Positions 5,223 through 32,000 of a stretch of DNA of 32,000 nt are shown piece by piece. The stretch is from Nitrosospira multiformis ATCC 25196 (GTDB lineage Bacteria > Pseudomonadota > Gammaproteobacteria > Burkholderiales > Nitrosomonadaceae): assembly GCF_000196355.1 (NCBI RefSeq), contig NC_007614.1, positions 1,020,001 through 1,052,000 of the forward strand, written 5' to 3'. A program made the translations under genes and the position numbers. The notes under the pieces are model-generated. The model saw only the letters and a list, made by a program, of their open reading frames with translations, searched no databases and was not told the origin of the DNA. Numbering within the stretch: position 1 is the first letter of the stretch; the number at the start of each line of letters is the position of its first letter.

Positions 5223-7025
5223 TTACCGGACATTTTTACCTGACCGGATTTGAGGCTTGGTTTGCCGTTTGTACGGGCCGCAGGTGTTGGGGCGCTGCAT
5301 CGTGCGGGCAATGAGTATTCGTAATTCCTCGAGAGAGCGGGTGTTGAGCACATCCTGTTTTTCCAGCCAGCCCCGCCTTGCCTGACCGATACCAAAGCGC
5401 AGGTTCGCGAAATCAAAAGTGCTGTGGGCGTCGGAATTGATGCTGACCAGCACCCCTTCCTCCTTGGCCATCTGGCAGTAGATATCGAACAAATCCAGCC
5501 GCTCGGGCTGGGCATTGAGTTCGAGGAAGCATCCGCGGCGTCCTGCTTCACGGATAATGCGGGGCATATCGATATCATAAGGCGGGCGCTGCGGGATGAG
5601 GCGACCGTTGGGATGCGCAAGAACGGTGAAATGGGGATGTTCCATTGCGCGCAGTATCCGCTCGGTCTGCCTCGCCCGCGGAAGCTCGAACTTGCTGTGG
5701 ACTGCCCCTACGACCAGATCGAGTTGCGCCAGAACGTGATCCGGCAGATCCAGGGTGCCATCCTCCAGAATGTCCACCTCGATTCCCTTGAGCAGGGTAA
5801 TTCCTTCCAGTTCTTCATTCAGCGCGTCGATCTCATCGCACTGGCGCTTCAGCCGGAGAGGATCGAGGCCGCGGGTGACTCTCAGTCCGCGTGAATGATC
5901 CGTGACGGCAATGTATTCCAGGCCATGCGATTTGCCGGCCAGTGCCATTTCGCGCAAGGTGTTATGACCGTCCGTAGCTTTTGTGTGAGTATGCAGATCC
6001 CCCCGCAAGTCGCACAGCTCGACTAGGCGTGGCAATTTCCGGGTTCGTGCCACGTCTATTTCACCCCTGTTCTCGCGCAACTCGGGTGGAATAAAGGATA
6101 GTCCGGCGGCACGATAGACCGATTCCTCGGTCTCGCCCGCGATGCGGTTTTTACCCCGGAACACGCCGTATTCGTTGACTTTCAACCCTTTTTTCTGGGC
6201 GATATACCGTACCGCAACATTATGGGCTTTTGATCCGGTAAAATAGTGCAGGGCAGCGCCGTAGCTTTCGTCCGCAACCACGCGCAGGTCCACCTGCAAG
6301 CCGCATTTCAGGACCACGCTGGCGCGAGTGCTTCCGGCAGCAAGTATTTCTGCAACCTCCTCGTACCCGGTGAAGCGCTCCATGACAGGACTGCCCGATG
6401 CGGCTGTGACAACGATATCGAGATCCCCAACCGTTTCGCGCATGCGCCGGTAGCTGCCGGCGACGATTGCTTCCTTGACTCCGGGAACGTCTGCCAGAAA
6501 CGCGCGCAGCGGCTCGGCGTATTGCGCCGCCACCGCCAGCTTGAAACGCCCTTTCTGATCGGTATGCGCCTCGATCGCCTGGAGGATGTTGAGCTCGGTT
6601 TTCTCGCCAAAACCAGATAGTGCACGAATGCGTCCCTCACGCGCCGCGCCGTAGAGCTGCTCGACAGTCTGGACATCCAGGTCGTGATAAAGATGCCGGA
6701 CCCGCTTCGGCCCGAGGCCGGGCACTTTCAGAAGCTCTGTAACCGCGGGGGGAAGCTCGGTTTGCAGCCGATCCAGCAAGGCGCAATGGCCGGTGGCAAT
6801 AATTTCTTCGATCTTGCCTGCAAGATCGCGCCCTATGCCGGGAAGCTCCGTCAGGTCTTCCTTGTTTTCGAGCAGCACGTACGCTTCGGTGGAAAGGGCG
6901 CCTATTGCCTGGACTGCGTTACGGTAGGCGCGTATCCGAAAAGGGTTTGCGCCTTCGATCTCGAGCAGATTGGCAATCTCTTCGAAGACAGCGGCGATAT
7001 CGGCATTATGGCTGGGCATGCGCAT
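5223..7025 (-). CDS. polX: Family X DNA polymerase with a C-terminal PHP phosphoesterase domain (PolX)
   Basis: 600 aa. The N-terminus IAAVFEEIANLLEIEGANPFRIRAYRNA carries HhH motifs. The pol-beta-like palm has GSYRRMRETVGDLDIVV. The PHP domain has DLHTHTKATDGHNT...INSDAHS. Confidence 0.9.
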   Translation of the reverse strand: MRMPSHNADIAAVFEEIANLLEIEGANPFRIRAYRNAVQAIGALSTEAYVLLENKEDLTELPGIGRDLAGKIEEIIATGHCALLDRLQTELPPAVTELLKVPGLGPKRVRHLYHDLDVQTVEQLYGAAREGRIRALSGFGEKTELNILQAIEAHTDQKGRFKLAVAAQYAEPLRAFLADVPGVKEAIVAGSYRRMRETVGDLDIVVTAASGSPVMERFTGYEEVAEILAAGSTRASVVLKCGLQVDLRVVADESYGAALHYFTGSKAHNVAVRYIAQKKGLKVNEYGVFRGKNRIAGETEESVYRAAGLSFIPPELRENRGEIDVARTRKLPRLVELCDLRGDLHTHTKATDGHNTLREMALAGKSHGLEYIAVTDHSRGLRVTRGLDPLRLKRQCDEIDALNEELEGITLLKGIEVDILEDGTLDLPDHVLAQLDLVVGAVHSKFELPRARQTERILRAMEHPHFTVLAHPNGRLIPQRPPYDIDMPRIIREAGRRGCFLELNAQPERLDLFDIYCQMAKEEGVLVSINSDAHSTFDFANLRFGIGQARRGWLEKQDVLNTRSLEELRILIARTMQRPNTCGPYKRQTKPQIRSGKNVR

Positions 7026-7802: not shown

Positions 7803-9230
7803 ATGAATCTGGAGCGCCTACGTCAACTGCAACCCTGCCTGTGGACATTGCCGCGCGCACCGGGCGAAGAACGCGCGCAGGTCCTCCTGTATGGCAGCGC
7901 GCCCTTGCTCGTCAGCATGGACGACAAGGTACTCGAGCAGATCGCCAACGTTGCTTCCCTGCCGGGGCTGGTTGGAGCGGCAATGACCATGCCGGATGCG
8001 CATTGGGGATATGGTTTTCCCATAGGGGGTGTTGCTGCTTTCGATGCTGAGCAGGGGGGGGTGATTTCCGCAGGCGGGGTCGGCTTCGATATTTCGTGCG
8101 GCATACGCTGTCTGCGCAGCAATCTGAATCTGGAGGATGCGGTAGAGCATTTTCCCCAGCTCGGAAAAGCCTTGTTCCGCGCTATCCCTGCTGGAGTGGG
8201 CGAGGAGGGCGAGATCAAGCTGAACCCGGAGCAGCTCGACCAGGTGATGCACGGCGGTGCACACTGGGCGGTACAGCAAGGCTACGGCACTCCAGCAGAT
8301 CTGGATTATGTTGAAGAACAGGGGCGGGTAGCAGGAGCGATCCCGGAAAACGTATCCGAACTTGCCAAAAAGCGCCAGCGCGGCGAGATGGGCACGCTCG
8401 GCTCAGGCAATCATTACCTGGAAGTACAGGTGGTGGACCGCATCTTCGATCCTGGCGTCGCGCTGGCGCTTGGCCTGCATGAAGGACAAATCCTGATTTC
8501 GATACATTGCGGTTCGCGTGGGCTGGGGCACCAGATCGGTACCGATTATCTGGTGCTATTGGCAAAAGCAGCCAGCCGCTCGGGCATTCATTTACCCGAT
8601 CGTGAACTCGCTTGCGCGCCTGTCAAATCCCCCGAAGGCCAGCAATATATCGGCGCGATGAATGCTGCGATCAATTGCGCGCTTGCCAACCGGCAAATCC
8701 TGACGCATCTTACGCGCTCCGTATTTACGGAAATTTATCCCCAGGCCGAGCTTGAAACCTTGTTTGATGTTTCGCACAATACCTGCAAGGCCGAAACCCA
8801 TCAGATCGACGGTGAATCGAGGTTGCTGTATGTGCACCGCAAGGGCGCTACACGCGCATTCGGCCCGGGCCACCCCATGCTGCCGGAACGCTACCGCCAG
8901 GTAGGACAACCCGTCGTTATCGGTGGAAGCATGGGAACAGGCTCCTACATTCTCGTTGGTGACAGCGAAAATCCCGCCTTCGCTTCTTCAAGCCACGGTG
9001 CAGGCCGGGCCATGAGCCGGCACCAGGCACTCGCGCGATGGAAAGGACGTGCGCTGGTGGACGAGTTGGCGCAACAAGGTATTCTGATCCATACCCGCTC
9101 CATGCGAGGTGTGGCGGAAGAAGCCCCGGGCGCCTATAAGGATGTCGATCTGGTGGCGGAGGCCACGGAAGAAGCCGGGCTCGCCCGGCGCGTCGCGTTT
9201 CTCCGACCCAAAGTCTGCGTTAAGGGTTAA
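7803..9230 (+). CDS. rtcB: RNA 3'-phosphate ligase RtcB (long, archaeal/eukaryal-like form)
   Basis: 475 aa carrying MPDAHWGYGFPIGGVAAF, GGVGFDISCG, GSGNHYLEVQ, HCGSRGLGHQ, SSSHGAGR and a C-terminal VCVKG. These are the RtcB metal-binding and His-GMP motifs. Confidence 0.95.
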   Translation: MNLERLRQLQPCLWTLPRAPGEERAQVLLYGSAPLLVSMDDKVLEQIANVASLPGLVGAAMTMPDAHWGYGFPIGGVAAFDAEQGGVISAGGVGFDISCGIRCLRSNLNLEDAVEHFPQLGKALFRAIPAGVGEEGEIKLNPEQLDQVMHGGAHWAVQQGYGTPADLDYVEEQGRVAGAIPENVSELAKKRQRGEMGTLGSGNHYLEVQVVDRIFDPGVALALGLHEGQILISIHCGSRGLGHQIGTDYLVLLAKAASRSGIHLPDRELACAPVKSPEGQQYIGAMNAAINCALANRQILTHLTRSVFTEIYPQAELETLFDVSHNTCKAETHQIDGESRLLYVHRKGATRAFGPGHPMLPERYRQVGQPVVIGGSMGTGSYILVGDSENPAFASSSHGAGRAMSRHQALARWKGRALVDELAQQGILIHTRSMRGVAEEAPGAYKDVDLVAEATEEAGLARRVAFLRPKVCVKG

Positions 9231-15714: not shown

Positions 15715-18366
15715 TCAGGCGGCTGCCGCCTCCTTCTGGACCCAGAACAGATACATGGTATTGAACGTGTCAGGGTTCTCGGTTTCGAATATGTGCCAGC
15801 GGTCGAGATCGGTTTGAGGAACATCCTCCGGAAAGCGCCGCCGATACTGATTAACCGTGCTTTGCCCAATCGAAAATCCGAGGAATATCAAACCAAGCTC
15901 CCGAAGATCTTCCTTGATGTGGGGAAGAGTATAACGATGCTCCTGGACATGGAATAGCATGTCGCGACACTCGCTCAAAGTATAGAAATCCCGTGCGGAT
16001 AAAACCTGACGAAATGTGTCTCCATTTTCTGGCGACATCATCTCCTGGCGACACGTCCTGATGTCTTCGGCAATGGGCTTGTATCCTCTTTGAGCAATAA
16101 AACGTTGGGCAAAAGCCAGGTGCGACCGTGCGTACTCGCTATACAGGCCGATACGCATGAAGCCGCCAGGCCGGAGCAAGGAAAGCAGCTTACGCCACCC
16201 GAGGAGAGGGTCGGAAAGATGGTGTAGAACGCCAACTGCTTCGATCACGTCGAAGAGTTTGCTACCTCTCGCCGCTATGCTCTCAGAATCGAGGTTCAGG
16301 ATGTCTGCCTGCGCGTATTCGATATTCCGTACGCACAACTCATCAGTCTTCCTTTTGGCATAACAGAGCGATCTTGAACTAAGATCGACAGCAAGAACAT
16401 TCGCATTCTTGAATCGCTGCGCGGCGGCAATGGCATGCCGGCCGGTTCCGCATCCCGCGACCAGAACCTCGATCGCGTCTTTGACACTTTCATTCCGATG
16501 TCCACGACTGGCAGACGATTCAAATCGCGCATAAGGGAAGCGGCTACTCAGGTAGCGGTCCACTAATTCGCTACCGGGCCGTAACGGAACCTTGATCCAT
16601 CTCGGATAAGGATTCTCTTCATACTGATTACGCACACGGCATGAAGTATCGTCTACGATGGCTGTCAGGGAAGGAAGGTGGGACAGATTCCGCTCTTCCT
16701 TCAGCGGCTCTTGCACCTGTTGCAAGAGCAGTGCTGCTATCGGGTCAGGCCAGGAATGGTCGAGAAGTCGTTCAGCAAATGGCAACGAACGGAGCGGAAA
16801 ATAAGCAGCCGCCGCTGCAAGCGATAGCGGGTGGATGGTTCCGTTGGCTTGCAGTGCGGCGGTGACTTGTTCCTTCAACTTCAGCGCCTGCTCATATTCC
16901 TCTGCCGAATATGCGAAAACATATTCGTTGATGAAGCATTGCCGCGCCAGTGCGCACCAAAATAAATCCCCTTCCTCCTGCCACTCCCGGCCATCTCCTC
17001 GTACCTTGCCGGCCCCATTTTCTTCGGCTATGGCTATTTGCAGAAGGCAATAGCGCAGCGAGGTCAAAAACTGTTCAAGTTCAACATCGCAAACAGGAGT
17101 ATTTTCCATCAAAGCCCGCAGCAGCTCATTATTGAACACTGCAGCAAAGCCGGCTTTGCTTGATTCAGATTTATCAAAAAGCTTCTGGCACGACATCCCG
17201 CCAGCCTGCGCTGTCTTCATCCCGTCGAGATGCCCACGTATGGCACAGTCTCTCTTGATCAGCGAAACAGCGGGGTTTCCAAAATCGTCTGGCTGGCCCC
17301 ATGTTTCGGATATGGCTCGAACAAGGAGAGAATGAAGGCGAGGTATGTCATGATCGCAGTAAAAATTCGCGATGCAATCTGTAAAATTCCTCTTTATATC
17401 GGAGTCATCGCAAAGTTCAAGTGCATCCCAGTAATCGATTACGGCATTGTCAGCCTTATGCTGTTGCCACAGCACATATGCACGATTGCTATAGGCCCGC
17501 GCATATCCAGGGTTCAGCTCAATAGCCCGGCCATAAGCAACTGCTGCTTCATCCAATCTCCCCAGCTCACGCAGCGCGTTTCCCAGATTGTTGAATGCCT
17601 CCGGAAACTGCGGCTTGTACAGGATGGCCTTTCCAAAACTTGATACTGCCTCTTCAAATTTACCTTGTTCCACGAGGACATTTCCCAGATTGTTGAATGC
17701 CTCTGCAGAATCCGGCTTTAACAGGAGTGCCTTGCGGAAGCTTGATACGGCATTTTCGAGATCCCCCTGCTCTCTATGGACGATGCCGATATTACAGTGC
17801 ATCTCCGCAAGCTGAGGCTGGATGCCGAGAGCCTTTCGATAATTGATCATCGCGTCATCCAGCCTGCCTTGCTCCCTGAGGGCGTTTCCAAGATTGCCAT
17901 AGGCCTCGGCAAAACGAGGCTCAAGTTTCACGGCAGTCCGGTAAGAGGCGATTGCATCATTCAATTTTCCTTGTTGTCTGAGCGTGTTACCAAGGTTGTT
18001 ATGTGCCTCCACGTAGTTGGGCTTGAACCTCAAGGCTCTCTTGATGAGTTCGATACCGATATCGATCCTGCCTGCATCCCGAGCCAGGAGGCCCAGGAAA
18101 TGCAGTGCATCGGGATGATTCGGATCAAGCTGAAGTATGTGTTGATAAATTGCTTCCGCTTGGGACAAATTTCCCCTCTTGTGATGCTCGACAGCGGCTT
18201 GAAGGTACTGCAGGATGGATTGTCGCGGAGACGTGTCGGCGAGTGAGGCTGCCGGGTTCGCTTCCGCGTTCCTTTCGCAGCAGTGCTTGTATTTCTTTCC
18301 GCTTCCACACGGGCATGGTTCATTCCGTCCAATCTTTTTCATGCTTTCAAGTTTTAAGCCAGTCAA
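15715..18366 (-). CDS. SEC-C motif / TPR-repeat / class I SAM-dependent methyltransferase multidomain protein
   Basis: 883 aa. The N-terminus has GRNEPCPCGSGKKYKHCC, a SEC-C zinc knuckle. About eight TPR units follow, with repeated A..Y...L...P....A..NLGN. The C-terminus has VLVAGCGTGRHAIAAA...VLAVDLS...FDVIEAVGVLHHL...LRPGGFM, which are MTase motifs I, II and post-I. Confidence 0.8.
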   Translation of the reverse strand: MTGLKLESMKKIGRNEPCPCGSGKKYKHCCERNAEANPAASLADTSPRQSILQYLQAAVEHHKRGNLSQAEAIYQHILQLDPNHPDALHFLGLLARDAGRIDIGIELIKRALRFKPNYVEAHNNLGNTLRQQGKLNDAIASYRTAVKLEPRFAEAYGNLGNALREQGRLDDAMINYRKALGIQPQLAEMHCNIGIVHREQGDLENAVSSFRKALLLKPDSAEAFNNLGNVLVEQGKFEEAVSSFGKAILYKPQFPEAFNNLGNALRELGRLDEAAVAYGRAIELNPGYARAYSNRAYVLWQQHKADNAVIDYWDALELCDDSDIKRNFTDCIANFYCDHDIPRLHSLLVRAISETWGQPDDFGNPAVSLIKRDCAIRGHLDGMKTAQAGGMSCQKLFDKSESSKAGFAAVFNNELLRALMENTPVCDVELEQFLTSLRYCLLQIAIAEENGAGKVRGDGREWQEEGDLFWCALARQCFINEYVFAYSAEEYEQALKLKEQVTAALQANGTIHPLSLAAAAAYFPLRSLPFAERLLDHSWPDPIAALLLQQVQEPLKEERNLSHLPSLTAIVDDTSCRVRNQYEENPYPRWIKVPLRPGSELVDRYLSSRFPYARFESSASRGHRNESVKDAIEVLVAGCGTGRHAIAAAQRFKNANVLAVDLSSRSLCYAKRKTDELCVRNIEYAQADILNLDSESIAARGSKLFDVIEAVGVLHHLSDPLLGWRKLLSLLRPGGFMRIGLYSEYARSHLAFAQRFIAQRGYKPIAEDIRTCRQEMMSPENGDTFRQVLSARDFYTLSECRDMLFHVQEHRYTLPHIKEDLRELGLIFLGFSIGQSTVNQYRRRFPEDVPQTDLDRWHIFETENPDTFNTMYLFWVQKEAAAA

Positions 18367-24997: not shown

Positions 24998-25270
24998 CTA
25001 TGGCGATATCGTGCCGAACAGGGTTCCATCCGGCGCGGTGACGCGGATTTCCGCGCGTTTGGGAAGCACGCGCGTACGTACTTCAACCCGGACCTTTTCA
25101 TTGCCGGAAACCGGGCGCGGAAGCGTGAGTTCGATCACGCCCTGTGGCACCTCGATCTGCGCAAAAGCGCCATTTCCCAGTATGGACGAGAATCCCAGTA
25201 TGGACGAGAATATCAGAACGGCAATTACCGTGGCGAAGCGTAGCTGCCATCTGCATTTCGCGGCAGTCAA
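24998..25270 (-). CDS. Small secreted protein of unknown function, translationally coupled to tyrosinase
   Basis: 90 aa. The TTG start overlaps the tyrosinase TGA (TTGA). The signal peptide is convincing: K/R-rich n-region, hydrophobic core and an AFA-Q cleavage site. The mature part is beta-rich (IEVPQGVIELTLPRPVSGNEKVRVEVRTRVL...). I recognise no family. Confidence 0.55.
   Translation of the reverse strand: MTAAKCRWQLRFATVIAVLIFSSILGFSSILGNGAFAQIEVPQGVIELTLPRPVSGNEKVRVEVRTRVLPKRAEIRVTAPDGTLFGTISP
25186..25221. repeat. Perfect 18-bp tandem duplication (CCCAGTATGGACGAGAAT x2)
   Basis: Read directly from the sequence. It is in frame and duplicates FSSILG within the signal-peptide core of the small secreted protein. 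Confidence 0.95.
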
Positions 25271-26967
25271 TGGGCCTCCACAACAATGGAAAGTACCTCC
25301 GCTTTCGGTTCCGTGCCAGGGGCATGTCTTGCCATCGGTACTCCCGGTTTTACCATTCGCTCCGAAACAATCCGGATATTCAACGCCCCGCTGTCTGTAA
25401 GCTGCGCGTTCTGCCGCATTGCCTCGATCGTGCCCGATAAAGGCACGGTAAAGGTAACCGGAGCCTGTATGGTGTGATGACCGAACATCGAGAGCGTACC
25501 GACGTAGTGAGGACTGGAGGGGTCCGTTCGACTGTTCCCGTCATCCACCATCACGGCAAAATCATGATGGTGCGCCAGCGGCGGCAGCGCCAGGGTGATC
25601 TTTGCATACAATCGCGGCGTTTCCGCCTGTGCGCGCAAGCCAAGCAGCGGAGACGGAAGTGTCACGACCGCGCTTGCCGCCTGCTCCCCGCTCACCACGG
25701 AACGGGTGATCTGGGCCCGGGTGCTCTCGGAGGGTACCGCTGCGCCCAGCAGTGAGGCGAACATGGGAGGCGCCACCACTTCCTCCCCGGAGCCGGGCTC
25801 ATAATCGTAATTGAAATCCCCGATAGCCGCGTAGTCCCCGGCGGTTCTTTTCTTCGCCGGCTTTCCCTTTGCATCGACAAAGAAAAGAAACGGTTCCCTC
25901 GACCAGGCGTCGAAATCCGCGCCTTCGGGCAAGGCAGGATATCCCCTCGCCAACTGCTTCCGGGTCCATACATCCCAAAGCCGATCGATATTCGCATGGT
26001 GCAGAAAAAAAAGCGGGTCGACAGGCGATAGATTGGCCTGCATGAAGCCGCCGTTGTTGGTGGTGTTGCCATTGGGGTCGGTAAAGATGCCGCCGACGCA
26101 GTTGTGCACCCTGTTGTGCGGCTGTCCTTCCAGCACGCCAAATCCGGTGAGGGCACTGTGACCAAGGGTCTTTGGGCTGGCAAACGTGAGGAAATCGCGA
26201 GGGGCCAGCGCGTCCAGCAATGTTTGCAGGGAGACGGCCTTCGTTGTTTTTCCATCGAGCTCCGGCTTTTCCCGGGTCGTGCCGCGCGCCTGTTTCAGAT
26301 CGAAAAAAAAGCGGCCTCTCGGATCGTTTAGCATATCGAACCACAGATCCTCGGGGGAGCGGATTCCCCGGGCGAGGAGCTGACCATACTGCGTCTCATC
26401 ATCGAATTCACCATTCGGCCCGCAAAAACGCTTCCAGTAATCCGCCCTGGCGATTACCCCGCGAAAGCGGTTCTGAAATTCGCGCGAGTTTGCAATATAG
26501 GCCGGATGAGCGGGGGTGAGCACATCCTCGAACATGACGGCGGGCACGCGTGCCTGAAAGGGACTGTCGGGGTCCGTATTCTCCGTCCAATCCCAGTAGG
26601 GAAGAGCAAACCCTGGGTCGCCGCTGAGCTCACGGCAAATCTGCTCGAACCAGCCGATATAGCCGCGGTGCCAGACCAGAAACCACCAGTTGCCGTGCGG
26701 GCAATCCATCGTGTGAGTGAGCGCGATGCGATACCAGTTGCGAGGGTCTTCCGGCGGGAGCTTGAGCATCCTGGCGATAGCCCTCTTGTAGCTTTCGATG
26801 GCGCGCTTTGCCCCAGGGTTCAGAACGTTCAAACGCCGATACTTTGCTTTCCCTTGTGCCTGGGCTCCGAAGGGCAGGGCAGAAGCGCCGATGGCGGCGG
26901 TGGTCGCCGCCGCAGCTTTCAGGAATGTGCGGCGGGACATGGTGGATGAGAACAATTTTGGCTGCAT
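25267..26967 (-). CDS. Tat-exported tyrosinase / polyphenol oxidase (type-3 copper) with a C-terminal extension
   Basis: 566 aa. The twin-arginine signal is MSRRTFLKAAAATTAAIGA. CuA is HGNWWFLVWHRGYIGWFE...LPYWDW. CuB is PHNRVHNCVGG...FFLHHANIDRLW. About 190 further aa may form a lid domain. The start is 26967 or 26940. Confidence 0.9.
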   Translation of the reverse strand: MQPKLFSSTMSRRTFLKAAAATTAAIGASALPFGAQAQGKAKYRRLNVLNPGAKRAIESYKRAIARMLKLPPEDPRNWYRIALTHTMDCPHGNWWFLVWHRGYIGWFEQICRELSGDPGFALPYWDWTENTDPDSPFQARVPAVMFEDVLTPAHPAYIANSREFQNRFRGVIARADYWKRFCGPNGEFDDETQYGQLLARGIRSPEDLWFDMLNDPRGRFFFDLKQARGTTREKPELDGKTTKAVSLQTLLDALAPRDFLTFASPKTLGHSALTGFGVLEGQPHNRVHNCVGGIFTDPNGNTTNNGGFMQANLSPVDPLFFLHHANIDRLWDVWTRKQLARGYPALPEGADFDAWSREPFLFFVDAKGKPAKKRTAGDYAAIGDFNYDYEPGSGEEVVAPPMFASLLGAAVPSESTRAQITRSVVSGEQAASAVVTLPSPLLGLRAQAETPRLYAKITLALPPLAHHHDFAVMVDDGNSRTDPSSPHYVGTLSMFGHHTIQAPVTFTVPLSGTIEAMRQNAQLTDSGALNIRIVSERMVKPGVPMARHAPGTEPKAEVLSIVVEAH

Positions 26968-26998: not shown

Positions 26999-27034
26999 GG
27001 ATAAAGCTGAACGGATAAAGTCGGATGGATAAAG
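26999..27034. repeat. Three phased direct repeats GGATAAAG at an exact 14-bp period upstream of tyrosinase
   Basis: Copies lie at 26999-27006, 27013-27020 and 27027-27034. On the gene strand they read CTTTATCC, 32-67 bp upstream of the tyrosinase ORF start. Confidence 0.8.
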
Positions 27035-27425
27035 CTTGACGGGACGGCGGGCATGGGGCACGCAATTTCCCGGAAATGAGAAGTGACGGGAGTTAAAAGA
27101 AACTTTCCGAAAGAATCTTTCTTTCAGCCATGCGGTTCAGCCTCCTGCCTCGTCCCGCTCAGGCATTTGGCATGGCCGCAAAGAATCAGGATTAGATAAC
27201 CAAATGGAAGCCAGGAGTAGCTGTAAAATCTTACAGGTAGCGGTTCGTGTTGGCGGAGTGTAGTTAGGGGAGACGATATTCCGCTCGTGGAATGAAACTC
27301 TCCGGGAAGCGGGAGCAGCGGATAGCGGTGCGGGAATCGGAAGTCAGCTCATATCCAATAACAGCTCGTTCTCCTGCCACAATCTTGATCAGCGCAGAAA
27401 ACTCAAGCCCAGACACGAGCTTAGA

Positions 27426-27459
27426 GAGTTATCAACAGAGCTATCCACGAGCTATCCAC
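27426..27459. repeat. Three tandem iteron-like / DnaA-box-like units (GAGTTATCAACA GAGCTATCCAC GAGCTATCCAC)
   Basis: Read directly from the sequence. The cores TTATCAACA and CTATCCACG (x2) resemble the DnaA box TTATCCACA, with 1 and 2 mismatches respectively. The 11-bp phasing puts them on one helical face. They lie about 200 bp upstream of the PIN-like gene. Confidence 0.6.
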
Positions 27460-27550
27460 GCCAATCGGGGAAAACTTCATCAGGTGTTAAGTTTCGGGGG
27501 AGCAATAGTTAAGATTAATTTATTCCCAGCGGGGGAAGTAAAAAGGAGGA

Positions 27551-27564
27551 TGGAACCGGTTCCA
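27551..27564. promoter_or_regulatory. Perfect 14-bp palindrome TGGAACCGGTTCCA (operator candidate)
   Basis: Seen in the sequence, 95 bp upstream of the PIN-like ATG. Confidence 0.3.
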
Positions 27565-27658
27565 GTTCACATTCAGGGGCCTCATACTGATATATAAGAG
27601 ATGGGCTGGTAATGCGTGCGTTACCCCTGTTTTGTACCAGCACTTAACTGGAACAAAT

Positions 27659-28624
27659 ATGAAAGTTTTTATCGATACAAATATTCTCCTAGACATTTAT
27701 CATCTATCCGGGCCTGACCTTGAGGAACTCCGAAAACTCAAGAAGATGGTTGAAAAGGGTAAGGTCGAATTGCTTGTGTCCATGCAGGTTATTGACGAGT
27801 TCTGGCGAAACCGAGAGCGGGTCATTGCGGACGCTATGCGGAAATTTCGTGAGTCAAAAGCTTCGGCACAAATTCCCAACATCATTCGAATCTATCCTGA
27901 GGCCAAGGAACTAAAGGAAGCGGTTGATAAGGTGAACGAAGTCGTCAAACAGCTTGCAGCTAAGGCAAGGGTAGACATTGAAGCCGATACCTTAAAATCC
28001 GATGAGGTAATAAGAGAGATATTTTCTGCCATCAAAGTTGGCGCGGTGAGCCCATCCCTTATAGAACAGGCACAATTGCGCTCCAAAGTTGGAAACCCTC
28101 CCGGGAAGAAAGACAGCCTTGGAGACGCCATTAATTGGGAGTGGCTCCTCGAACAGGAAATCGAATTCTGGGACGATGAGCTTATTATTATCAGCGCCGA
28201 TGGGGACTACGAGTCAGAATTGTCCAAAGGAAAGCCTAAAGAGTATTTGCTGAGGGAATGGAACGAAAAGAATACGAGCTGTGAACTCAAACTGGAGAAG
28301 TCGCTCGCGGATTTCTTTAAAGCCAAATTCCCTGACATTCAACTGGCGGAGGAAATCGATAAGATTGAAGCCATAGAACGGCTTGAGGAATCCGGCTCTT
28401 TCGCTGCCACGCATAGAGCAGTTTCGACGCTTGATGATTACGATGATTTCAAAGATTCAGAAGTCAAGCGCATCATCAAAGCTTATTTAGACAACAATCA
28501 GATTCGAAGGATTCTTGAAGATGAAGATGTCAGAGAGTTTGCTTTGAAGGTGGTCGGATTAGCCAAGTCAGAAGAAACAATTGGTCTTTCAAAGTCGTTG
28601 AAGGAGCTTCTTGAGCCGCTTTAA
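27659..28624 (+). CDS. Stand-alone PIN-like (DUF4935-type) nuclease-domain protein with an unknown C-terminal helical region
   Basis: MKVFIDTNILLDIYHLSG...VIDEFWRNRERVI...KDSLGDAINWEWLLE...IIISADGDY places acidic residues in a PIN-like order (D, E, D, D). The last ~110 aa are acidic and helical with no recognisable family. I prefer the ATG at 27659 over the TTG at 27632. Confidence 0.65.
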   Translation: MKVFIDTNILLDIYHLSGPDLEELRKLKKMVEKGKVELLVSMQVIDEFWRNRERVIADAMRKFRESKASAQIPNIIRIYPEAKELKEAVDKVNEVVKQLAAKARVDIEADTLKSDEVIREIFSAIKVGAVSPSLIEQAQLRSKVGNPPGKKDSLGDAINWEWLLEQEIEFWDDELIIISADGDYESELSKGKPKEYLLREWNEKNTSCELKLEKSLADFFKAKFPDIQLAEEIDKIEAIERLEESGSFAATHRAVSTLDDYDDFKDSEVKRIIKAYLDNNQIRRILEDEDVREFALKVVGLAKSEETIGLSKSLKELLEPL

Positions 28625-28855
28625 GATGAAAATCAACTTTCACCTTCAGCCTAATTGTGCGCTGCATGTAGAAGCTAGCTTCCTGCCGGTATTGTTCCCC
28701 ATTTTTCTAATGTTCCGGTCGATTGTGCGAGCGTCGAACCGTGCTTAATCTCGCATTTCCAGGTGGACTTCAATATCACCCGAGTACAGGACTTAGAGCC
28801 GCCGAATGCTGCTCCCTTTCACGGTATTAGGGGACTTTCAAGAAAGCAGTTTCAA

Positions 28856-28878
28856 TTGGCGGAGAGAGAGACCGCCAA
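28856..28878. other. Hairpin TTGGCGG-(agagagaga)-CCGCCAA upstream of the integrase
   Basis: A 7-bp perfect stem with a 9-nt purine loop. No U-tract follows. Confidence 0.3.
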
Positions 28879-28949
28879 CCTACCGTTTCATGGTGTCTCA
28901 GAAATTCCTATAAGACTTGGTTTTACTTATCTTTTTTTAAATACTTGCC

Positions 28950-28978
28950 TTGACGTGTTCCAGGTTGTCCCATAGTAT
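28950..28978 (+). promoter_or_regulatory. Sigma70-like promoter candidate for the integrase
   Basis: TTGACG (28950-28955), a 17-nt spacer, then TAGTAT (28973-28978). It lies 24 nt upstream of the first ATG. Confidence 0.4.
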
Positions 28979-29001
28979 CCCAGTCTCATATGTAGGTAGA
29001 A

Positions 29002-30225
29002 ATGGGGGTAGAAATGAGACGCCAAACGTGTAGGTTATCAGCAAAGGAAGTGTCTAACAAGAAGAAGCCAGGTTACTACTGCGATGGTGCGGGGCTCTAT
29101 CTGCAGATAAGTGACTCGGGCAGCAAGTCGTGGATATTCCGCTATACCTTGAACGGCAAGAACCGGCACATGGGTTTAGGGCCAGTTCATACTGTCTCCC
29201 TGGCTGATGCACGCACTGCCGCCGTTCAATGCCGGCAATTGCTGCTTCGCAAAATGGATCCTATTACAGCACGTGATGCTGAGCACGCACAGCAGTCACT
29301 TGAAGCTGCAAGGTCAATGACTTTTTCCGAGTGTGCTGCTCTCTATATTAAAGCCCATCGCTCCAGCTGGAAGAACACAAAACATGCCGATCAGTGGACA
29401 AATACCATCAAGACTTATTGCGGACCTGTCATAGGCCCGTTATCCGTCCAGGATGTCGATACGAAGCTGATTATGAAGGTGCTAGACCCGATCTGGGAAC
29501 AGAAACCGGAGACAGCCAGCCGATTACGCGGGCGTATAGAATCTGTACTTGATTGGGCTACAGTCAGAGGTTATCGAGAAGGAGATAATCCCGCCCGATG
29601 GCGAGGGTATCTTAGTCATGCGCTACCCTCGCTTAAAAAGAAACTCAGGGTAAAACATCATCCGGCCTTACAGTTCAGCCAGATGGCTGAATTTATGGGA
29701 TTGCTTCGAGCAGAGGAAGGCATTGCTGCAAGAGCACTGGAATTCCTAATTCTCACAGCCGCACGAACTAGTGAGGTTATCGGTGCAAGATGGGAAGAGT
29801 TGGATCTAAAGGCTTCGATCTGGACTATTCCAGGTACGCGCATGAAAGCGGATGACCCGCATCGAGTACCGCTTTCGGGAAGAGCTTTGGAAATTATCTT
29901 GAACTTGGAGAAGATAAAGCAAAGCGACTATGTATTTCCAGGGCAGAAGATCGAAAAGCCGCTAAGCAATAACGCCATGCTTAAGGTACTCGAACGCATG
30001 GGAAGGAATGATATAACCGTACATGGTTTTCGCTCATCATTTCGAGACTGGGCTTCGGAATGCACAAATTTTCCAAGAGACGTATGTGAGATGGCGCTTG
30101 CCCATACGATAAGCAATAAAGCAGAAGCAGCTTATCGTCGAGGAGACTTGTTCGAGAAGCGGAGGGTATTGATGGAAGAGTGGGCGGGATATTGCTACGA
30201 TGGCTCAGCAATTATGTCAAGGTAA
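29002..30225 (+). CDS. int: Tyrosine recombinase / integrase, P4-like (Arm-type DUF4102 N-domain)
   Basis: 407 aa. The N-terminal KPGYYCDGAGLYLQISDSGSKSWIFRY...GLGP...SLADAR is the arm-binding domain. The C-terminal catalytic residues are ...TAARTSEV...HGFRSSFRDW...LAHT...AYRR (R, H-x-x-R, H, Y). The initiation region GGTAGAAATG is duplicated at 28995-29004 and 29007-29016, so the start may be 29002 or 29014. Confidence 0.9.
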   Translation: MGVEMRRQTCRLSAKEVSNKKKPGYYCDGAGLYLQISDSGSKSWIFRYTLNGKNRHMGLGPVHTVSLADARTAAVQCRQLLLRKMDPITARDAEHAQQSLEAARSMTFSECAALYIKAHRSSWKNTKHADQWTNTIKTYCGPVIGPLSVQDVDTKLIMKVLDPIWEQKPETASRLRGRIESVLDWATVRGYREGDNPARWRGYLSHALPSLKKKLRVKHHPALQFSQMAEFMGLLRAEEGIAARALEFLILTAARTSEVIGARWEELDLKASIWTIPGTRMKADDPHRVPLSGRALEIILNLEKIKQSDYVFPGQKIEKPLSNNAMLKVLERMGRNDITVHGFRSSFRDWASECTNFPRDVCEMALAHTISNKAEAAYRRGDLFEKRRVLMEEWAGYCYDGSAIMSR

Positions 30226-30320
30226 TAACTATAGGGAATGCTTCTGTTCGAATCATCTGCAAGAAGTACTTGCCAGTTTAGGCTTCTATAAAAAGTCAGA
30301 GTCAGTTGTTGAATCTAATG

Positions 30321-30380
30321 GAGGGAACTTAAAATCCCTCGGGCTTAACCGCCCGTGCCGGTTCGATACGGCTGCGGGAC
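30321..30380 (+). other. tRNA-like fragment: three consecutive hairpins including a T-loop-like GGTTCGATA
   Basis: The hairpins are GAGGGA-acttaaaa-TCCCTC, GGGC-ttaacc-GCCC and CCCGTGCCG-gttcgata-CGGC(t)GCGGG. I could find no matching 5' acceptor strand or D-arm, so this is not a complete tRNA. It may be an att-site or tRNA remnant about 100 bp downstream of the integrase. Confidence 0.25.
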
Positions 30381-30727
30381 TAATATCCAAGAGCATAGAT
30401 GTGTTCTAATCTTTCCGTCTATAATTATTTACTGTCAGGTTGACAACCCAGCCCAAAGCTGAAGTTGTTCTATTAGCATATTGCTAAACATCATACCGCT
30501 GGCAGCTGGTCGGCTGTTCCTCGTCGACAACAACATCCCACCCATCTCCTCAAGCAGAGCCCACCTTTCCGTGCAGTGACTGTTTTTGAAAAGATTGCAG
30601 CGTGTTCAAGGATCTGTCTTTATCAAAACTGTCTACCACAGCTGTTAGATTCACATATCATGGTGCAGAGGGAAGATAGGGCATCCTGCTTTTATTGACA
30701 CCAGCCAAGCTCATTTGCATGAGAGCA

Positions 30728-31663
30728 TCAATCTCCCGATTTCTCATTCCTGGATGTTAACGAGTAATTTGAGCTGCGGATCGATTCTCCCGATGCGCGT
30801 CGATGAACAGTTTGATGCATAACGCGCGTGTTCACACCCGGCACGCTCACCCTGCATTTTATGCCTGCAGGTAGTTTGGAATCATCATTGGCAATTTCCA
30901 TTCGTACCCCAAAAGTACCGCTCGCTGTATCCATGACTTTATCTACGATTTTCACTCTGGCTTTATAAGACCCCCCCACAGGCGCCTCCGGAAATACTTC
31001 CAATAGTTGCCCTGGTTTGACCTTTCCATAAGCCTCGAGCGGGAGAAGTGTTTCTACATGTAAAACTGTAATATCCGCTATTTTCAAAATAATTTTCCGA
31101 TTATCACTCCTTGCGTCTGTCAACTCTCCAGGGTGCATCATCCGGTCGACGACAATTCCATTGAATGGACTTCTTACGGTCCGTAGACGTAGCTGTTCAC
31201 TGGCACGCCGGTACTCGAGCTGAGCCACGCGTTTATTATCCAGAGCCTCCTTTAGCTCTGCTTCAGCCAGTCGTTTCTCTGTCTCTGCTTCATCACGATC
31301 CTGTGTAGATACAAACTTCTGTGCAAGTAATTGTTCACGGCGATGATGCTTCAAGGTCGCATATTCGGATCGACTCTGGCTGGCCTGTATAGCACCTTCC
31401 ATAGTTGAACGGTATTTGGCAAGCTCGGTAGTCGCTTTTTCCAAGCCTGAATCCAGCGTTACAAGTATCTGACCAGTATTGACGGCGTCACCGCGATCCA
31501 CCCAGATTTTTTCGATAATTCCGGTCGTGCTCGGTCGGATCTCTACTATCTGGCGCGCCTCGATCAGGCAGTCAAACTCCCCTGCCCACCCAAATGCCGC
31601 CCCCCAAGAGGATACGCAGGCAAACGTAACTTGTGCCCAAAAGCGCCTCACATTAATAGTCAA
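30728..31663 (-). CDS. Membrane-fusion protein (HlyD / RND-adaptor family periplasmic adaptor)
   Basis: 311 aa with an N-terminal signal or anchor. Its parts are a lipoyl-like IRPSTTGIIEKIWVDRGDAVNTGQILVTLD, a coiled coil (EAETEKRLAEAELKEALDNKRVAQLEYRRASEQL), then VRSPFNGIVV and a beta-barrel. The start is a TTG with GGAAGGA 8 nt upstream. Confidence 0.8.
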   Translation of the reverse strand: MTINVRRFWAQVTFACVSSWGAAFGWAGEFDCLIEARQIVEIRPSTTGIIEKIWVDRGDAVNTGQILVTLDSGLEKATTELAKYRSTMEGAIQASQSRSEYATLKHHRREQLLAQKFVSTQDRDEAETEKRLAEAELKEALDNKRVAQLEYRRASEQLRLRTVRSPFNGIVVDRMMHPGELTDARSDNRKIILKIADITVLHVETLLPLEAYGKVKPGQLLEVFPEAPVGGSYKARVKIVDKVMDTASGTFGVRMEIANDDSKLPAGIKCRVSVPGVNTRVMHQTVHRRASGESIRSSNYSLTSRNEKSGD

Positions 31664-31693
31664 CGTTTGATTCCTTCCAATCGAGATATATCA

Positions 31694-32000
31694 TCACTCT
31701 CCACGTCCCGCAAAAGCCAGCATCTTCGCTAGTCGTTGATCTTCCAGCACAGTCTGGCGACGTATTCTCGAGTAATACCGTTCTGATGATCGTTGTGCCG
31801 ATCCCCGCAGCAGTTTTGCTTTCATGCCGGTTATTACATTACTGAAACTTGAATTGCTCATAACCCTACGAGCCATCTCTCCCGAAAATAGAACAAATAG
31901 CTCGTCTTCCAAGGAGACAATGGATTCGTAACTTCCCTTATCCCCCTGGCGTCCAGCACGTCCATAAAGTTGTCGGTCGATGCGGGGCGATTCGTGGAAC
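31694..32000 (-). CDS. SecA-like DEAD-motor ATPase. Only the C-terminal part is in the window, and the protein ends shortly after NBD2.
   Basis: Own translation upstream of the track ORF gives [47 protein letters not shown]...[23 protein letters not shown]...GRGE*. It aligns by eye with E. coli SecA [37 protein letters not shown]...[21 protein letters not shown]. The stop comes only about 75 aa after motif VI. Confidence 0.75.

What the first reader, a model, noticed from the sequence alone, without database searches (positions are those of the whole stretch)
30728..32000. SecA-like motor that terminates just after NBD2, paired with a membrane-fusion protein
The partial ORF at the window edge carries the SecA helicase motif VI region ([22 protein letters not shown]...SLEDELF) and the beginning of the scaffold helix ([15 protein letters not shown]). 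It stops about 75 aa after motif VI. It therefore lacks the helical wing domain, the two-helix finger and the C-terminal linker/SEC-C that canonical SecA uses to drive polypeptides into SecY. Thirty nt downstream, with its own GGAAGGA SD, starts a HlyD/RND-adaptor-type membrane-fusion protein. MFPs normally bridge an inner-membrane pump to an outer-membrane channel, yet no pump gene follows within 500 bp. A SecA-derived ATPase coupled to an MFP inside an AT-richer, integrase-marked region could be a non-canonical export or envelope-spanning system. The upstream partners lie outside the window.
Basis: partly seen in the sequence, partly recalled or inferred. Interest (0 to 1): 0.65.

Follow-up and report, generated by a model that had tools for sequence, protein, structure and literature searches.

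The report
Short SecA secretion module, last two genes
The window edge holds the last two genes of a widespread, already published but never tested gene module in which a shortened SecA motor, three HlyD-type adaptors and a membrane protease probably export giant surface proteins.

Summary
On the minus strand, 32000->31697 encodes the last 101 residues of a SecA-like ATPase. It stops 81 residues after motif VI. A 311-aa membrane-fusion protein (31663->30728) follows after 30 nt. The stop is genuine: in 75 related loci the tail is 65-83 residues (median 81), and the tail is always C-terminal.

Across 80 species genomes the short SecA follows a PqqD/M50-protease-HlyD fusion (64/67) and a GAF-HlyD fusion (60/63). 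A small adaptor follows it in 42/75, sometimes with TolC. ABC-ATPase-like frames are nearly absent (4/83 loci). The orthologous Nitrosospira sp. Nsp1 locus shows the full cassette behind a 5436-aa protein.

This module was described by comparative genomics in Kamneva, Poudel and Ward 2015 (PMC4452313). Their table lists Nitrosospira multiformis Nmul_A0923 (HlyD), A0925 (M50) and A0926 (GAF), very probably this locus. Function remains untested.

Two points were not found in the literature searched. All 10 neighbouring giant genes whose start I could read carry the N-terminal LEPR-XLL motif. The M50 protein carries a leader-binding PqqD domain. Together these point to leader-guided export of giant proteins.

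The parts
31694..32000 (-). 3' end (101 codons plus the stop at 31694-31696) of the short 'secondary SecA_DEAD' ATPase. It covers the end of NBD2 with motif VI and about 35 residues of the scaffold helix, then a conserved C-terminus LAFAGRGE. Probably Nmul_A0924.
   Evidence: 79% identical to the C-terminus of the 666-aa Nitrosospira sp. Nsp1 protein. Tail length matches the family mode.
31664..31693 (-). 30-nt intergenic spacer with the Shine-Dalgarno-like GGAAGGA (31672-31678), 8 nt before the TTG start of the adaptor gene.
   Evidence: Read directly. No promoter or terminator signal above shuffled expectation, which is compatible with co-transcription.
30728..31663 (-). Small periplasmic adaptor (membrane-fusion protein, 311 aa): N-terminal signal/anchor helix, lipoyl domain, long alpha-hairpin and beta-barrel, with no membrane-proximal domain. 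Last gene of the cassette. Probably Nmul_A0923.
   Evidence: Pfam and NCBIfam. 82% identical to the Nsp1 orthologue. AlphaFold2 pLDDT 87.5. Best superposition is MacA 3fpp, TM 0.64/0.73.

Best explanation
The window holds the last two genes of the 'secondary SecA_DEAD / type-I-secretion-like' module described by Kamneva et al. 2015. The full operon, partly beyond base 32000, most likely reads: giant repeat protein, GAF-HlyD, PqqD/M50-HlyD, short SecA, small MFP.

Proposed mechanism (inferred, not shown). The giant cargo has no Sec-type signal peptide but carries an N-terminal LEPR-XLL leader. The cytoplasmic PqqD-like (RRE) domain of the M50-HlyD protein binds this leader. The intramembrane HExxH protease may clip it. 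The short SecA keeps its ATPase motor and preprotein clamp but has lost the parts that engage SecY. It supplies ATP-driven threading in place of the ABC transporter of a classical type I system. The roughly 7-helix M50 domain and the single-pass GAF-HlyD form the inner-membrane platform. The three HlyD-type periplasmic domains, including the window's small MFP with its MacA-like hairpin, build the duct to a TolC-family channel, which is encoded in the cassette or elsewhere.
For: Shown:
- Module membership and synteny. M50 N-domain directly upstream in 64/67 loci, GAF-HlyD in 60/63, small MFP downstream in 42/75.
- The orthologous Nitrosospira sp. Nsp1 locus has the full order behind a 5436-aa protein. 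The published table gives Nmul_A0923/0925/0926.
- Motor competence. Walker A in 65/68 and DEAD in 66/68 full-length homologues. PPXD is present.
- Loss of SecY-engaging parts. All SecA and SecA2 NCBIfam cut-offs are failed.
- Protease motifs HELGH and NPLLRxDxYY are at least 90% conserved in 58 sequences. PqqD is above the Pfam threshold (24.7 against 23.4).
- About 7 TM segments in M50-HlyD and 1 in GAF-HlyD. The M50-HlyD C-terminus folds as an adaptor with a hairpin.
- TolC inside the cassette in Methylosinus pMSC49a and about 7 GTDB loci. ABC-ATPase-like frames occur in only 4/83 loci.
- Cargo link. A same-strand frame of at least 900 aa is present in 36/50 long loci, carrying RTX, cadherin or Big_9 repeats. 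Genes of 24-38 kb sit next to plasmid-borne cassettes.
- All 10 visible N-termini of these giant genes pass NF012209 LEPR-8K (23-35 bits against a cut-off of 17). They have no hydrophobic signal-peptide core.
Against: No experiment exists. Kamneva et al. found that most of the operon was barely expressed in M. extorquens AM1.

Within the window only the SecA tail and the MFP are visible, so the giant gene and its leader in this genome are inferred from relatives.

An M50 protease is not known to form a protein-conducting pore. The small MFP is missing next to SecA in 33/75 loci. About 28% of long loci show no large frame within 10 kb. LEPR-XLL was checked in only 10 cases and not genome-wide. 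Direction of threading, leader cleavage and the SecA docking site are speculation.
Confidence: 0.65

Rival explanations
1. The short ORF is a broken or mis-sequenced ordinary secA (pseudogene), and the MFP next to it is coincidental.
For: The ORF is cut by the window edge, so its 5' part cannot be seen here.
Against: The tail length and the C-terminal LAFAGRGE motif are conserved across 75 loci and many phyla. Tail hits always end at the protein's C-terminus. The family has RIDRQL[YF]GR, whereas the solved B. subtilis SecA aligned has RIDNQLRGR. Orthologues are intact at 666-670 aa. Copies sit on plasmids.
Confidence: 0.01
2. The cassette matures and exports a small ribosomal peptide (RiPP-like). 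The RRE binds the peptide's leader, M50 removes it and the HlyD proteins export it. The giant genes are neighbours for another reason.
For: There is a PqqD domain. The closest NCBIfam model of the M50 part is the daptide intramembrane protease (E 1.5e-40). PGAP names it 'PqqD family peptide modification chaperone'. Small DUF3467 ORFs occur in 23/55 loci.
Against: No modification enzymes are conserved in the cassette. DUF3467 and SapC are absent from about half of the loci, and minimal cassettes run straight from the giant gene to GAF-HlyD. The daptide model cut-off is missed (139.5 against 300). The LEPR-XLL leader sits on the giant proteins themselves in 10/10 cases. A SecA-type polypeptide motor is unnecessary for a small peptide.
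Confidence: 0.12
3. The short SecA is a cytosolic holdase or unfoldase that keeps giant proteins unfolded and hands them to a transporter encoded elsewhere (a classical ABC type I system or SecYEG). The HlyD proteins are accessory.
For: The motor lacks any membrane-inserting part and has no TM segment. RTX repeats in some cargoes are typical of ABC-dependent type I substrates. TolC is usually not in the cassette.
Against: Three membrane-anchored HlyD-type proteins are co-conserved with it at over 90%, and no ABC ATPase is. The two-helix finger and scaffold needed for SecY engagement are gone. The cargo lacks a Sec signal peptide.
Confidence: 0.12
4. The module is a signalling or envelope-surveillance device: a GAF sensor plus site-2-type regulated intramembrane proteolysis, with no cargo transport.
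For: There is a GAF domain and M50/S2P-like motifs. Kamneva et al. suggested a regulatory role for the GAF protein.
Against: No anti-sigma or sigma partner is conserved. Three TolC-docking-type adaptors and in-cassette TolC are hard to explain without a duct. There is tight linkage to giant exported proteins.
Confidence: 0.07
5. The MFP is an ordinary RND or metal-efflux adaptor, as databases name it ('CzcB', 'efflux RND transporter periplasmic adaptor subunit'), and is unrelated to the SecA-like gene.
For: It passes the generic TIGR01730 model, and the next best model is CzcB/NccB. Source names are listed.
Against: No RND, ABC or MFS pump gene is adjacent in the window or in orthologous loci. 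The model lacks the membrane-proximal domain that contacts RND pumps. The gene keeps its place after the short SecA in 42/75 loci.
Confidence: 0.03

Closest known systems
Secondary SecA_DEAD / type-I-secretion-related module (Kamneva, Poudel and Ward, PLoS One 2015, PMC4452313)
   Same: Identical architecture: a SecA_DEAD protein without the wing/scaffold domain, an M50-like membrane protein with HlyD, a GAF-HlyD protein, a small HlyD/biotin-lipoyl protein, and sometimes an OEP/TolC. Their S2 Table lists N. multiformis Nmul_A0923 (HlyD), A0925 (M50) and A0926 (GAF) at distances 1, 1 and 2 from the SecA_DEAD gene.
   Different: Nothing structural. That paper named no substrate, no PqqD domain and no giant genes. 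It saw about 20 genomes.
Classical type I secretion system (HlyB-HlyD-TolC)
   Same: HlyD-type adaptors with TolC-docking hairpins. TolC is encoded in or out of the operon. Cargoes are very large RTX, cadherin or Ig-repeat proteins without Sec signal peptides. SapC, known from the Campylobacter fetus sapCDEF S-layer type I locus (my knowledge), occurs in 8/55 loci.
   Different: There is no ABC transporter. The only conserved ATPase is a SecA derivative. There are three different adaptors instead of one, and two are fused to cytoplasmic or membrane domains. The conserved cargo mark is N-terminal (LEPR-XLL), whereas type I signals are C-terminal.
Canonical SecA and Gram-positive/mycobacterial SecA2
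   Same: NBD1, PPXD and NBD2 with intact Walker A, DEAD and motif VI. About 40% identity to solved SecA. Like SecA2 it is an extra, dispensable paralogue dedicated to special cargo.
   Different: It ends about 35 residues into the scaffold helix, with no wing domain, two-helix finger or C-terminal linker/SEC-C. It scores below every SecA and SecA2 NCBIfam cut-off. Its conserved partners are HlyD/M50 proteins, not SecY/SecY2.
SecA_DEAD plus preprotein-binding domains fused inside giant proteins of Omnitrophota and Actinobacteria (West-Roberts et al., bioRxiv 10.1101/2023.11.21.568195)
   Same: A SecA motor without the scaffold/wing domain, physically tied to giant proteins and proposed to help export them.
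   Different: There the motor is a domain of the giant protein itself, next to TM segments. Here it is a separate 650-690-aa protein in an operon with HlyD/M50 partners. Relatedness of the two SecA clades was not tested here.
RiPP leader peptidases of the M50 family with RRE (daptide MpaM-type NF041824; YydH/LiaK NF058609) and peptidase-containing ABC exporters
   Same: The logic is the same: a leader-binding domain plus a leader protease built into the exporter. There is a PqqD-type RRE, and the HExxH motif is conserved.
   Different: It scores below both family cut-offs. It is fused to an HlyD periplasmic domain. The presumed substrate is a protein of 5,000 to 12,000 aa, not a peptide. The motor is SecA-like, not ABC.

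Membership tests
Secondary SecA_DEAD / T1SS-like module (Kamneva 2015) | SecA_DEAD protein that has lost the wing/scaffold domain | tested here: met
   The window tail ends 81 aa after motif VI. Orthologues have SecA_DEAD, PP_bind and P-loop_SecA only and align to residue ~582-615 of solved SecAs.
Secondary SecA_DEAD / T1SS-like module (Kamneva 2015) | Small HlyD/biotin-lipoyl protein adjacent to the SecA_DEAD gene | tested here: met
   Window 31663->30728, 30 nt after the SecA stop. 42/75 loci. Listed as Nmul_A0923.
Secondary SecA_DEAD / T1SS-like module (Kamneva 2015) | M50-like polytopic protein with HlyD domain, and a GAF-HlyD protein, next to the SecA_DEAD gene | tested here: inconclusive
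   These lie beyond base 32000, so they are not visible in the window. They are present in the 79-82% identical Nsp1 locus and in 64/67 and 60/63 loci. Published as Nmul_A0925/A0926 for N. multiformis, which I infer to be the source genome.
Canonical SecA (NCBIfam TIGR00963 / PRK12904) | Whole-protein score above the equivalog cut-off | tested here: not met
   565.4 bits against 814, and 557.9 against 800, for the L064 orthologue.
Canonical SecA | Helical scaffold, wing domain, two-helix finger and C-terminal linker | tested here: not met
   No SecA_SW hit. The alignment to B. subtilis SecA stops at residue 582 of 778. The protein ends there in 75 loci.
Canonical SecA | DEAD motor (Walker A, DEAD, motif VI) and preprotein cross-linking domain | tested here: met
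   Motif VI is in the window. Walker A in 65/68 and DEAD in 66/68 homologues. SecA_PP_bind at 86-92 bits.
Accessory SecA2 (TIGR03714, TIGR04221, TIGR04397, NF012136) | Score above the family cut-off; SecY2/Asp or SecA1-dependent context | tested here: not met
   466.7 against 930, 435.9 against 725, 537.2 against 1085 and 370.8 against 1100. The conserved neighbours are HlyD, M50 and GAF proteins, and none is SecY-like.
Periplasmic adaptor / membrane-fusion protein (TIGR01730, HlyD_D23) | Lipoyl domain, alpha-hairpin and beta-barrel; score above cut-off | tested here: met
   124.8 bits against 94.9. The AlphaFold2 model shows all three domains. Foldseek gives MacA, AcrA and MexA at E 1e-17 to 1e-19. 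The membrane-proximal domain is absent.
Classical type I secretion system | ABC transporter (HlyB-type) as inner-membrane energiser | tested here: not met
   LSGGQ plus Walker A frames occur in 4/83 loci. Only one is of HlyB size, and it is on the opposite strand. None is in the window next to the MFP.
Classical type I secretion system | TolC-family outer-membrane factor | tested here: inconclusive
   TolC is in the cassette in Methylosinus pMSC49a and within 10 kb in 8 of the 80 GTDB loci: after the small MFP in four, convergent with it in two, and elsewhere in two, one of them a weak match. It is not in the window. It is usually encoded elsewhere, as is also common for classical systems.
RiPP M50 leader peptidases (daptide NF041824; YydH/LiaK NF058609) | Score above the equivalog cut-off | tested here: not met
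   139.5 against 300 and 28.8 against 225. The HExxH motif and PqqD domain are nevertheless present.
LEPR-XLL (NF012209) giant proteins as cargo | N-terminal LEPRxLL motif on the giant protein encoded next to the cassette | tested here: met
   10/10 visible N-termini score 23-35 bits against a cut-off of 17. This was not testable for the window's own genome, because the gene lies outside the window.
Known anti-phage defence systems (PADLOC) | Any cassette protein matching a defence model | tested here: not met
   No hits for the four cassette proteins.

The most novel reading that the evidence does not exclude
The module is a distinct, ABC-independent secretion pathway dedicated to LEPR-XLL giant proteins. 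An N-terminal leader is read by the RRE domain and clipped by the M50 protease of the exporter. The polypeptide (5,000-12,000 aa) is threaded N-terminus first by a SecA motor that no longer uses SecY. It passes through a hetero-oligomeric three-adaptor duct into TolC. The module itself is published. The cargo class, the leader-recognition logic and the resulting mechanism were not found in any paper I could search.
Probability: 0.45. Interest if true: 0.8.

Novelty: already known. Interest (0 to 1): 0.4.

Why it matters
Giant surface proteins (adhesins, RTX proteins, S-layer-like fibres) shape biofilms, symbioses and predation. How cells export a 10,000-residue chain is largely unknown outside the ABC-type type I pathway.

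This module is very common. It occurs in at least 582 species-level genomes across Proteobacteria, Nitrospirota, Rokubacteria/Methylomirabilota and, per the 2015 paper, Planctomycetes and Verrucomicrobia. It is often plasmid-borne, and in one case it and its giant gene fill about two-thirds of a 62-kb plasmid.

If the proposed mechanism holds, SecA's motor has been re-used outside the Sec channel. The LEPR-XLL motif would then become a predictive export signal for giant proteins. For this window itself the value is mainly correct annotation. Databases call these genes 'prepilin peptidase', 'DEAD/DEAH box helicase', 'CzcB' or 'hypothetical protein'.

Tried and rejected
- Exact look-up of the window's MFP, and of its identical cluster entry P0065, found no contig. 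I could not extend the window itself and used the Nsp1 orthologue instead.
- Searching with the 101-aa tail returned only short fragments. These were useful for the C-terminus alignment only.
- Single-linkage clustering of greedy ORFs merged all HlyD proteins and picked antisense shadow ORFs in high-GC loci. I replaced it with domain-specific phmmer on stop-to-stop frames.
- Island boundaries could not be resolved. There is no tRNA, no Rfam hit even at E 10 and no convincing direct repeats. Relaxed ARAGORN gave only a spurious call. A tRNA-Leu-like remnant I thought I saw at about 30300-30375 is therefore not claimed.
- The promoter/terminator scan was uninformative.
- PDB sequence searches with DUF3467 and M50-HlyD found nothing.
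- Foldseek of the M50-HlyD model was dominated by its adaptor domain, so the fold of the M50/RRE part was not independently matched.
- PADLOC gave no defence link.
- Eight literature searches missed the key paper. The ninth ('SecA homologs' plus Proteobacteria) found it.
- The tail-only search of the 1.84-billion-protein library is too insensitive to size the family (45 hits).
Full report
**What is in the window**

The finding lies on the minus strand. Reading 31999->31697 gives 101 codons ending ...LAFAGRGE, with the stop at 31694-31696. Residues 2-51 match the end of Pfam P-loop_SecA, which is SecA's second nucleotide-binding domain with motif VI (E 1.2e-13, 51.6 bits against a cut-off of 27). 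The ORF ends 81 residues after ...GRQGD.

Thirty nucleotides later a TTG at 31663 opens a 311-codon ORF (31663->30728). It is preceded by GGAAGGA at 31672-31678. The product is a periplasmic adaptor, also called a membrane-fusion protein or MFP. It matches HlyD_D23 (E 3.8e-19) and scores 124.8 bits on TIGR01730 against a cut-off of 94.9.

Downstream there are 502 nt with no long ORF, then the 3' end of a convergent P4-type integrase gene (29002-30225). G+C falls to 0.45-0.50 over 27-32 kb, against 0.53-0.59 over most of 3-27 kb.

**Is the early stop real?**

Yes.
- An alignment of 18 homologous C-termini shows one shared end point and a conserved tail.
- In 75 loci from different species the distance from ...RQGD to the stop is 65-83 residues. 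The median is 81, and the window has 81.
- A search of 1.84 billion representative proteins with the 81-residue tail alone found 45 matches. In nearly all of them the match runs to within a few residues of the protein's own C-terminus, for example 598-677 of 677.
- Full-length homologues are 650-690 aa. They carry SecA_DEAD, SecA_PP_bind and P-loop_SecA but no wing/scaffold domain.
- They align to B. subtilis SecA only up to residue 582 of 778, and to Clostridioides SecA2 up to about residue 615.
- Walker A (65/68) and the DEAD box (66/68) are intact.
- The family scores below every NCBIfam SecA and SecA2 cut-off, for example 565 against 814 bits.

The protein is thus a working-looking SecA motor with its preprotein clamp. 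It lacks the wing domain, two-helix finger and C-terminal linker that canonical SecA uses at SecY.

**The neighbourhood**

I examined the best 80. Domain-specific searches of stop-to-stop frames gave these counts.

| Feature relative to the short SecA | Loci |
|---|---|
| M50-type N-domain directly upstream | 64/67 |
| GAF-containing N-domain upstream of that | 60/63 |
| Small MFP immediately downstream | 42/75 |
| DUF3467 nearby | 23/55 |
| SapC nearby | 8/55 |

Both upstream proteins end in HlyD-type periplasmic domains. Where the small MFP is not downstream, it can sit elsewhere in the locus. In Mesorhizobium it lies between DUF3467 and GAF-HlyD, and in Pseudosulfitobacter it is divergent from the giant gene.

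A TolC gene directly follows the small MFP in Methylosinus sp. C49 plasmid pMSC49a. Among the 80 GTDB loci, TolC homologues lie within 10 kb in eight: after the small MFP in four (L029, L035, L054, L075), convergent with it in two (L030, L056), and elsewhere in two (L071 upstream, L059 a weak match). ABC-ATPase-like frames occur in only 4 of 83 loci. No cassette protein matches a PADLOC defence model.

**This genome**

The window's exact MFP sequence sits in a cluster whose longest contig is 3,184,243 bp. From memory, that is the chromosome length of Nitrosospira multiformis ATCC 25196. The nearest visible relatives are Nitrosospira.

The closest readable locus is Nitrosospira sp. Nsp1. Its SecA tail is 79% identical and its MFP 82% identical to the window's. 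That locus reads:
1. 5436-aa repeat protein
2. GAF-HlyD (616 aa)
3. PqqD/M50-HlyD (715 aa)
4. short SecA (666 aa)
5. MFP (316 aa)
6. IS and toxin-antitoxin debris

The same order is expected just beyond base 32000.

**Prior art**

Eight literature searches found nothing. The ninth found Kamneva, Poudel and Ward, PLoS One 2015 (PMC4452313). They report 'secondary SecA_DEAD domain proteins' that have lost the wing/scaffold domain. These are encoded with an M50-like membrane protein, a GAF-HlyD protein and a small HlyD/biotin-lipoyl protein, sometimes with an OEP/TolC gene.

They propose that the SecA_DEAD protein replaces the ABC ATPase of a type-I-like system, with the M50 protein as the membrane component. 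Their S2 Table lists N. multiformis ATCC 25196 Nmul_A0923 (HlyD, distance 1), Nmul_A0925 (M50, distance 1) and Nmul_A0926 (GAF, distance 2). That is exactly the arrangement inferred here.

I found no experimental follow-up. The 2015 authors found most of the operon barely expressed in M. extorquens AM1.

**What I can add**

1. *Cargo.* A same-strand frame of at least 900 aa lies in 36/50 long loci. These frames carry RTX, cadherin, Big_9, He_PIG or PPC repeats. On annotated plasmids the adjacent genes are 24-38 kb long. In every case where I could read the start of such a gene, it carries the NCBIfam LEPR-8K / LEPR-XLL motif above threshold (23-35 bits against 17). That is six plasmids and four GTDB loci, 10 of 10. 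The motif reads roughly basic stretch-(L/F/Y)EPRxLLSAD, and there is no hydrophobic signal-peptide core. The 2015 paper mentions no substrate, giant protein or PqqD domain. 'LEPR-XLL' occurs only incidentally in two papers.

2. *Leader recognition.* The M50-HlyD protein begins with a PqqD-type (RRE) domain. It passes Pfam's threshold in the Nitrosospira protein (24.7 against 23.4). HELGH and NPLLRxDxYY are at least 90% conserved over 58 sequences. This suggests an active intramembrane metalloprotease related to RiPP leader peptidases (daptide model E 1.5e-40, but below cut-off).

3. *Architecture.* Hydropathy gives about 7 TM segments in M50-HlyD, one in GAF-HlyD after a 350-aa cytoplasmic part, and none in the short SecA. 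An AlphaFold2 model of M50-HlyD (pLDDT 80.5) has a C-terminal adaptor with a roughly 27-residue-per-helix hairpin that matches MexA, AcrA and MacA. The window's MFP (pLDDT 87.5) has a signal/anchor helix, a lipoyl domain, a roughly 40-residue-per-helix hairpin and a beta-barrel, but no membrane-proximal domain. It superposes best on MacA (TM 0.64/0.73).

4. *Scale.* The M50-HlyD family has at least 7878 clusters at 90% identity. The 120 best matches are almost all 714-716 aa long.

**Most likely mechanism (inferred)**

The giant protein's N-terminal LEPR-XLL leader is bound by the RRE domain and perhaps cut by the M50 site. The short SecA supplies ATP-driven threading. The M50 and GAF-HlyD membrane parts form the inner-membrane platform. 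The three HlyD-type domains form the periplasmic duct to TolC. GAF may gate the machine in response to a ligand.

Only synteny, domain content, motif conservation and the cargo mark are shown. Binding, cleavage, the path of the chain and its direction are not.

**Rivals**

- A pseudogene is excluded.
- A RiPP-like small-peptide exporter is possible but lacks modification enzymes and a conserved precursor.
- A cytosolic unfoldase feeding another transporter does not explain the co-conserved adaptors.
- A pure signalling device does not explain three TolC-type adaptors.
- An ordinary RND adaptor is contradicted by synteny and by the missing membrane-proximal domain.

**Related published idea**

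West-Roberts et al. (bioRxiv 10.1101/2023.11.21.568195) found SecA_DEAD and preprotein-binding domains, again without scaffold/wing, fused inside giant proteins of Omnitrophota and Actinobacteria. They proposed self-export. A 2026 preprint links SapC and TolC to giant Chlorochromatium proteins. Both fit a general tie between stripped-down SecA motors and giant-protein export.

**Verdict**

The novelty of the finding as stated is 'already known', through a 2015 comparative-genomics paper that very probably covers this locus. Interest is moderate. The system remains functionally untested, is very widespread, and now has a concrete, testable cargo and leader hypothesis.

Noticed in passing
window 29002-30225 (+), with 27000-32000: A P4-type tyrosine integrase (Arm-DNA-bind_3, Phage_int_M, Phage_integrase) converges on the MFP gene. 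G+C drops to 0.45-0.50 from about 27 kb to the window end. No tRNA, Rfam hit or flanking direct repeats were found, so island limits, and whether the cassette lies inside the island, remain open.
   Followed up: partly
window 27632-28624 (+): A 330-aa PIN_12/PIN_8 nuclease-like protein. Its C-terminal 100 residues match the PADLOC candidate defence model PDC-S34 (E 5e-14). It sits between the tyrosinase gene and the integrase.
   Followed up: no
window 15715-18366 (-): An 883-aa protein with an N-terminal SEC-C zinc motif (PF02810, E 3.6e-10), many TPR repeats and a C-terminal methyltransferase domain. The SEC-C motif that the short SecA lacks appears here on an unrelated protein 14 kb away.
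   Followed up: no
window 25267-26967 (-): A 566-aa tyrosinase-domain protein with a twin-arginine (Tat) signal, at the last high-GC stretch before the low-GC region.
   Followed up: no
L083-L091, L094-L097 (plasmid records); L005, L028, L040, L062: Every giant gene next to the cassette whose start is readable (10/10) has the N-terminal LEPR-XLL / LEPR-8K motif. The genes reach 24-38 kb. In four GTDB loci the LEPR-XLL gene lies downstream of the cassette rather than upstream.
   Followed up: yes
L095/L097 (NZ_CP049043.1, Pseudohalocynthiibacter plasmid pRR4-35_6, 62 kb): A giant gene that appears to run across the record origin (about 35 kb, unannotated in PLSDB), together with the cassette and a divergent small MFP, takes up about two-thirds of this plasmid.
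   Followed up: partly
L084 13920-15836; L083 14055-16016; L085 19842-21824; L095 12031-14037: Public annotation of the short SecA is inconsistent: 'prepilin peptidase', 'DEAD/DEAH box helicase', 'translocase', 'hypothetical protein', 'preprotein translocase subunit SecA'. The M50-HlyD partner is named 'PqqD family peptide modification chaperone', 'peptidase M50' or 'hypothetical protein'.
   Followed up: no
L056 3855-4157; L064 3100-3918; L096 1833-2630: Two optional small partners sit between or beside the giant gene and the cassette: DUF3467 (about 100 aa; no PDB relative by sequence) and SapC (about 270 aa). SapC is otherwise known from the Campylobacter fetus S-layer type I secretion locus. 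Their role (chaperone?) is unknown.
   Followed up: partly
L092 11048-15352: In Nitrosospira sp. Nsp1 the cassette is followed by an IS21 IstB fragment, a PEP-CTERM protein and a ParE/Phd toxin-antitoxin pair. As in the window, mobile-element debris flanks the 3' end of the cassette.
   Followed up: no
window 5223-7025 (-), 7803-9230 (+): A PolX-type DNA polymerase with a PHP domain, and an RtcB RNA ligase, in the high-GC part of the window. Both are unrelated to the finding.
   Followed up: no
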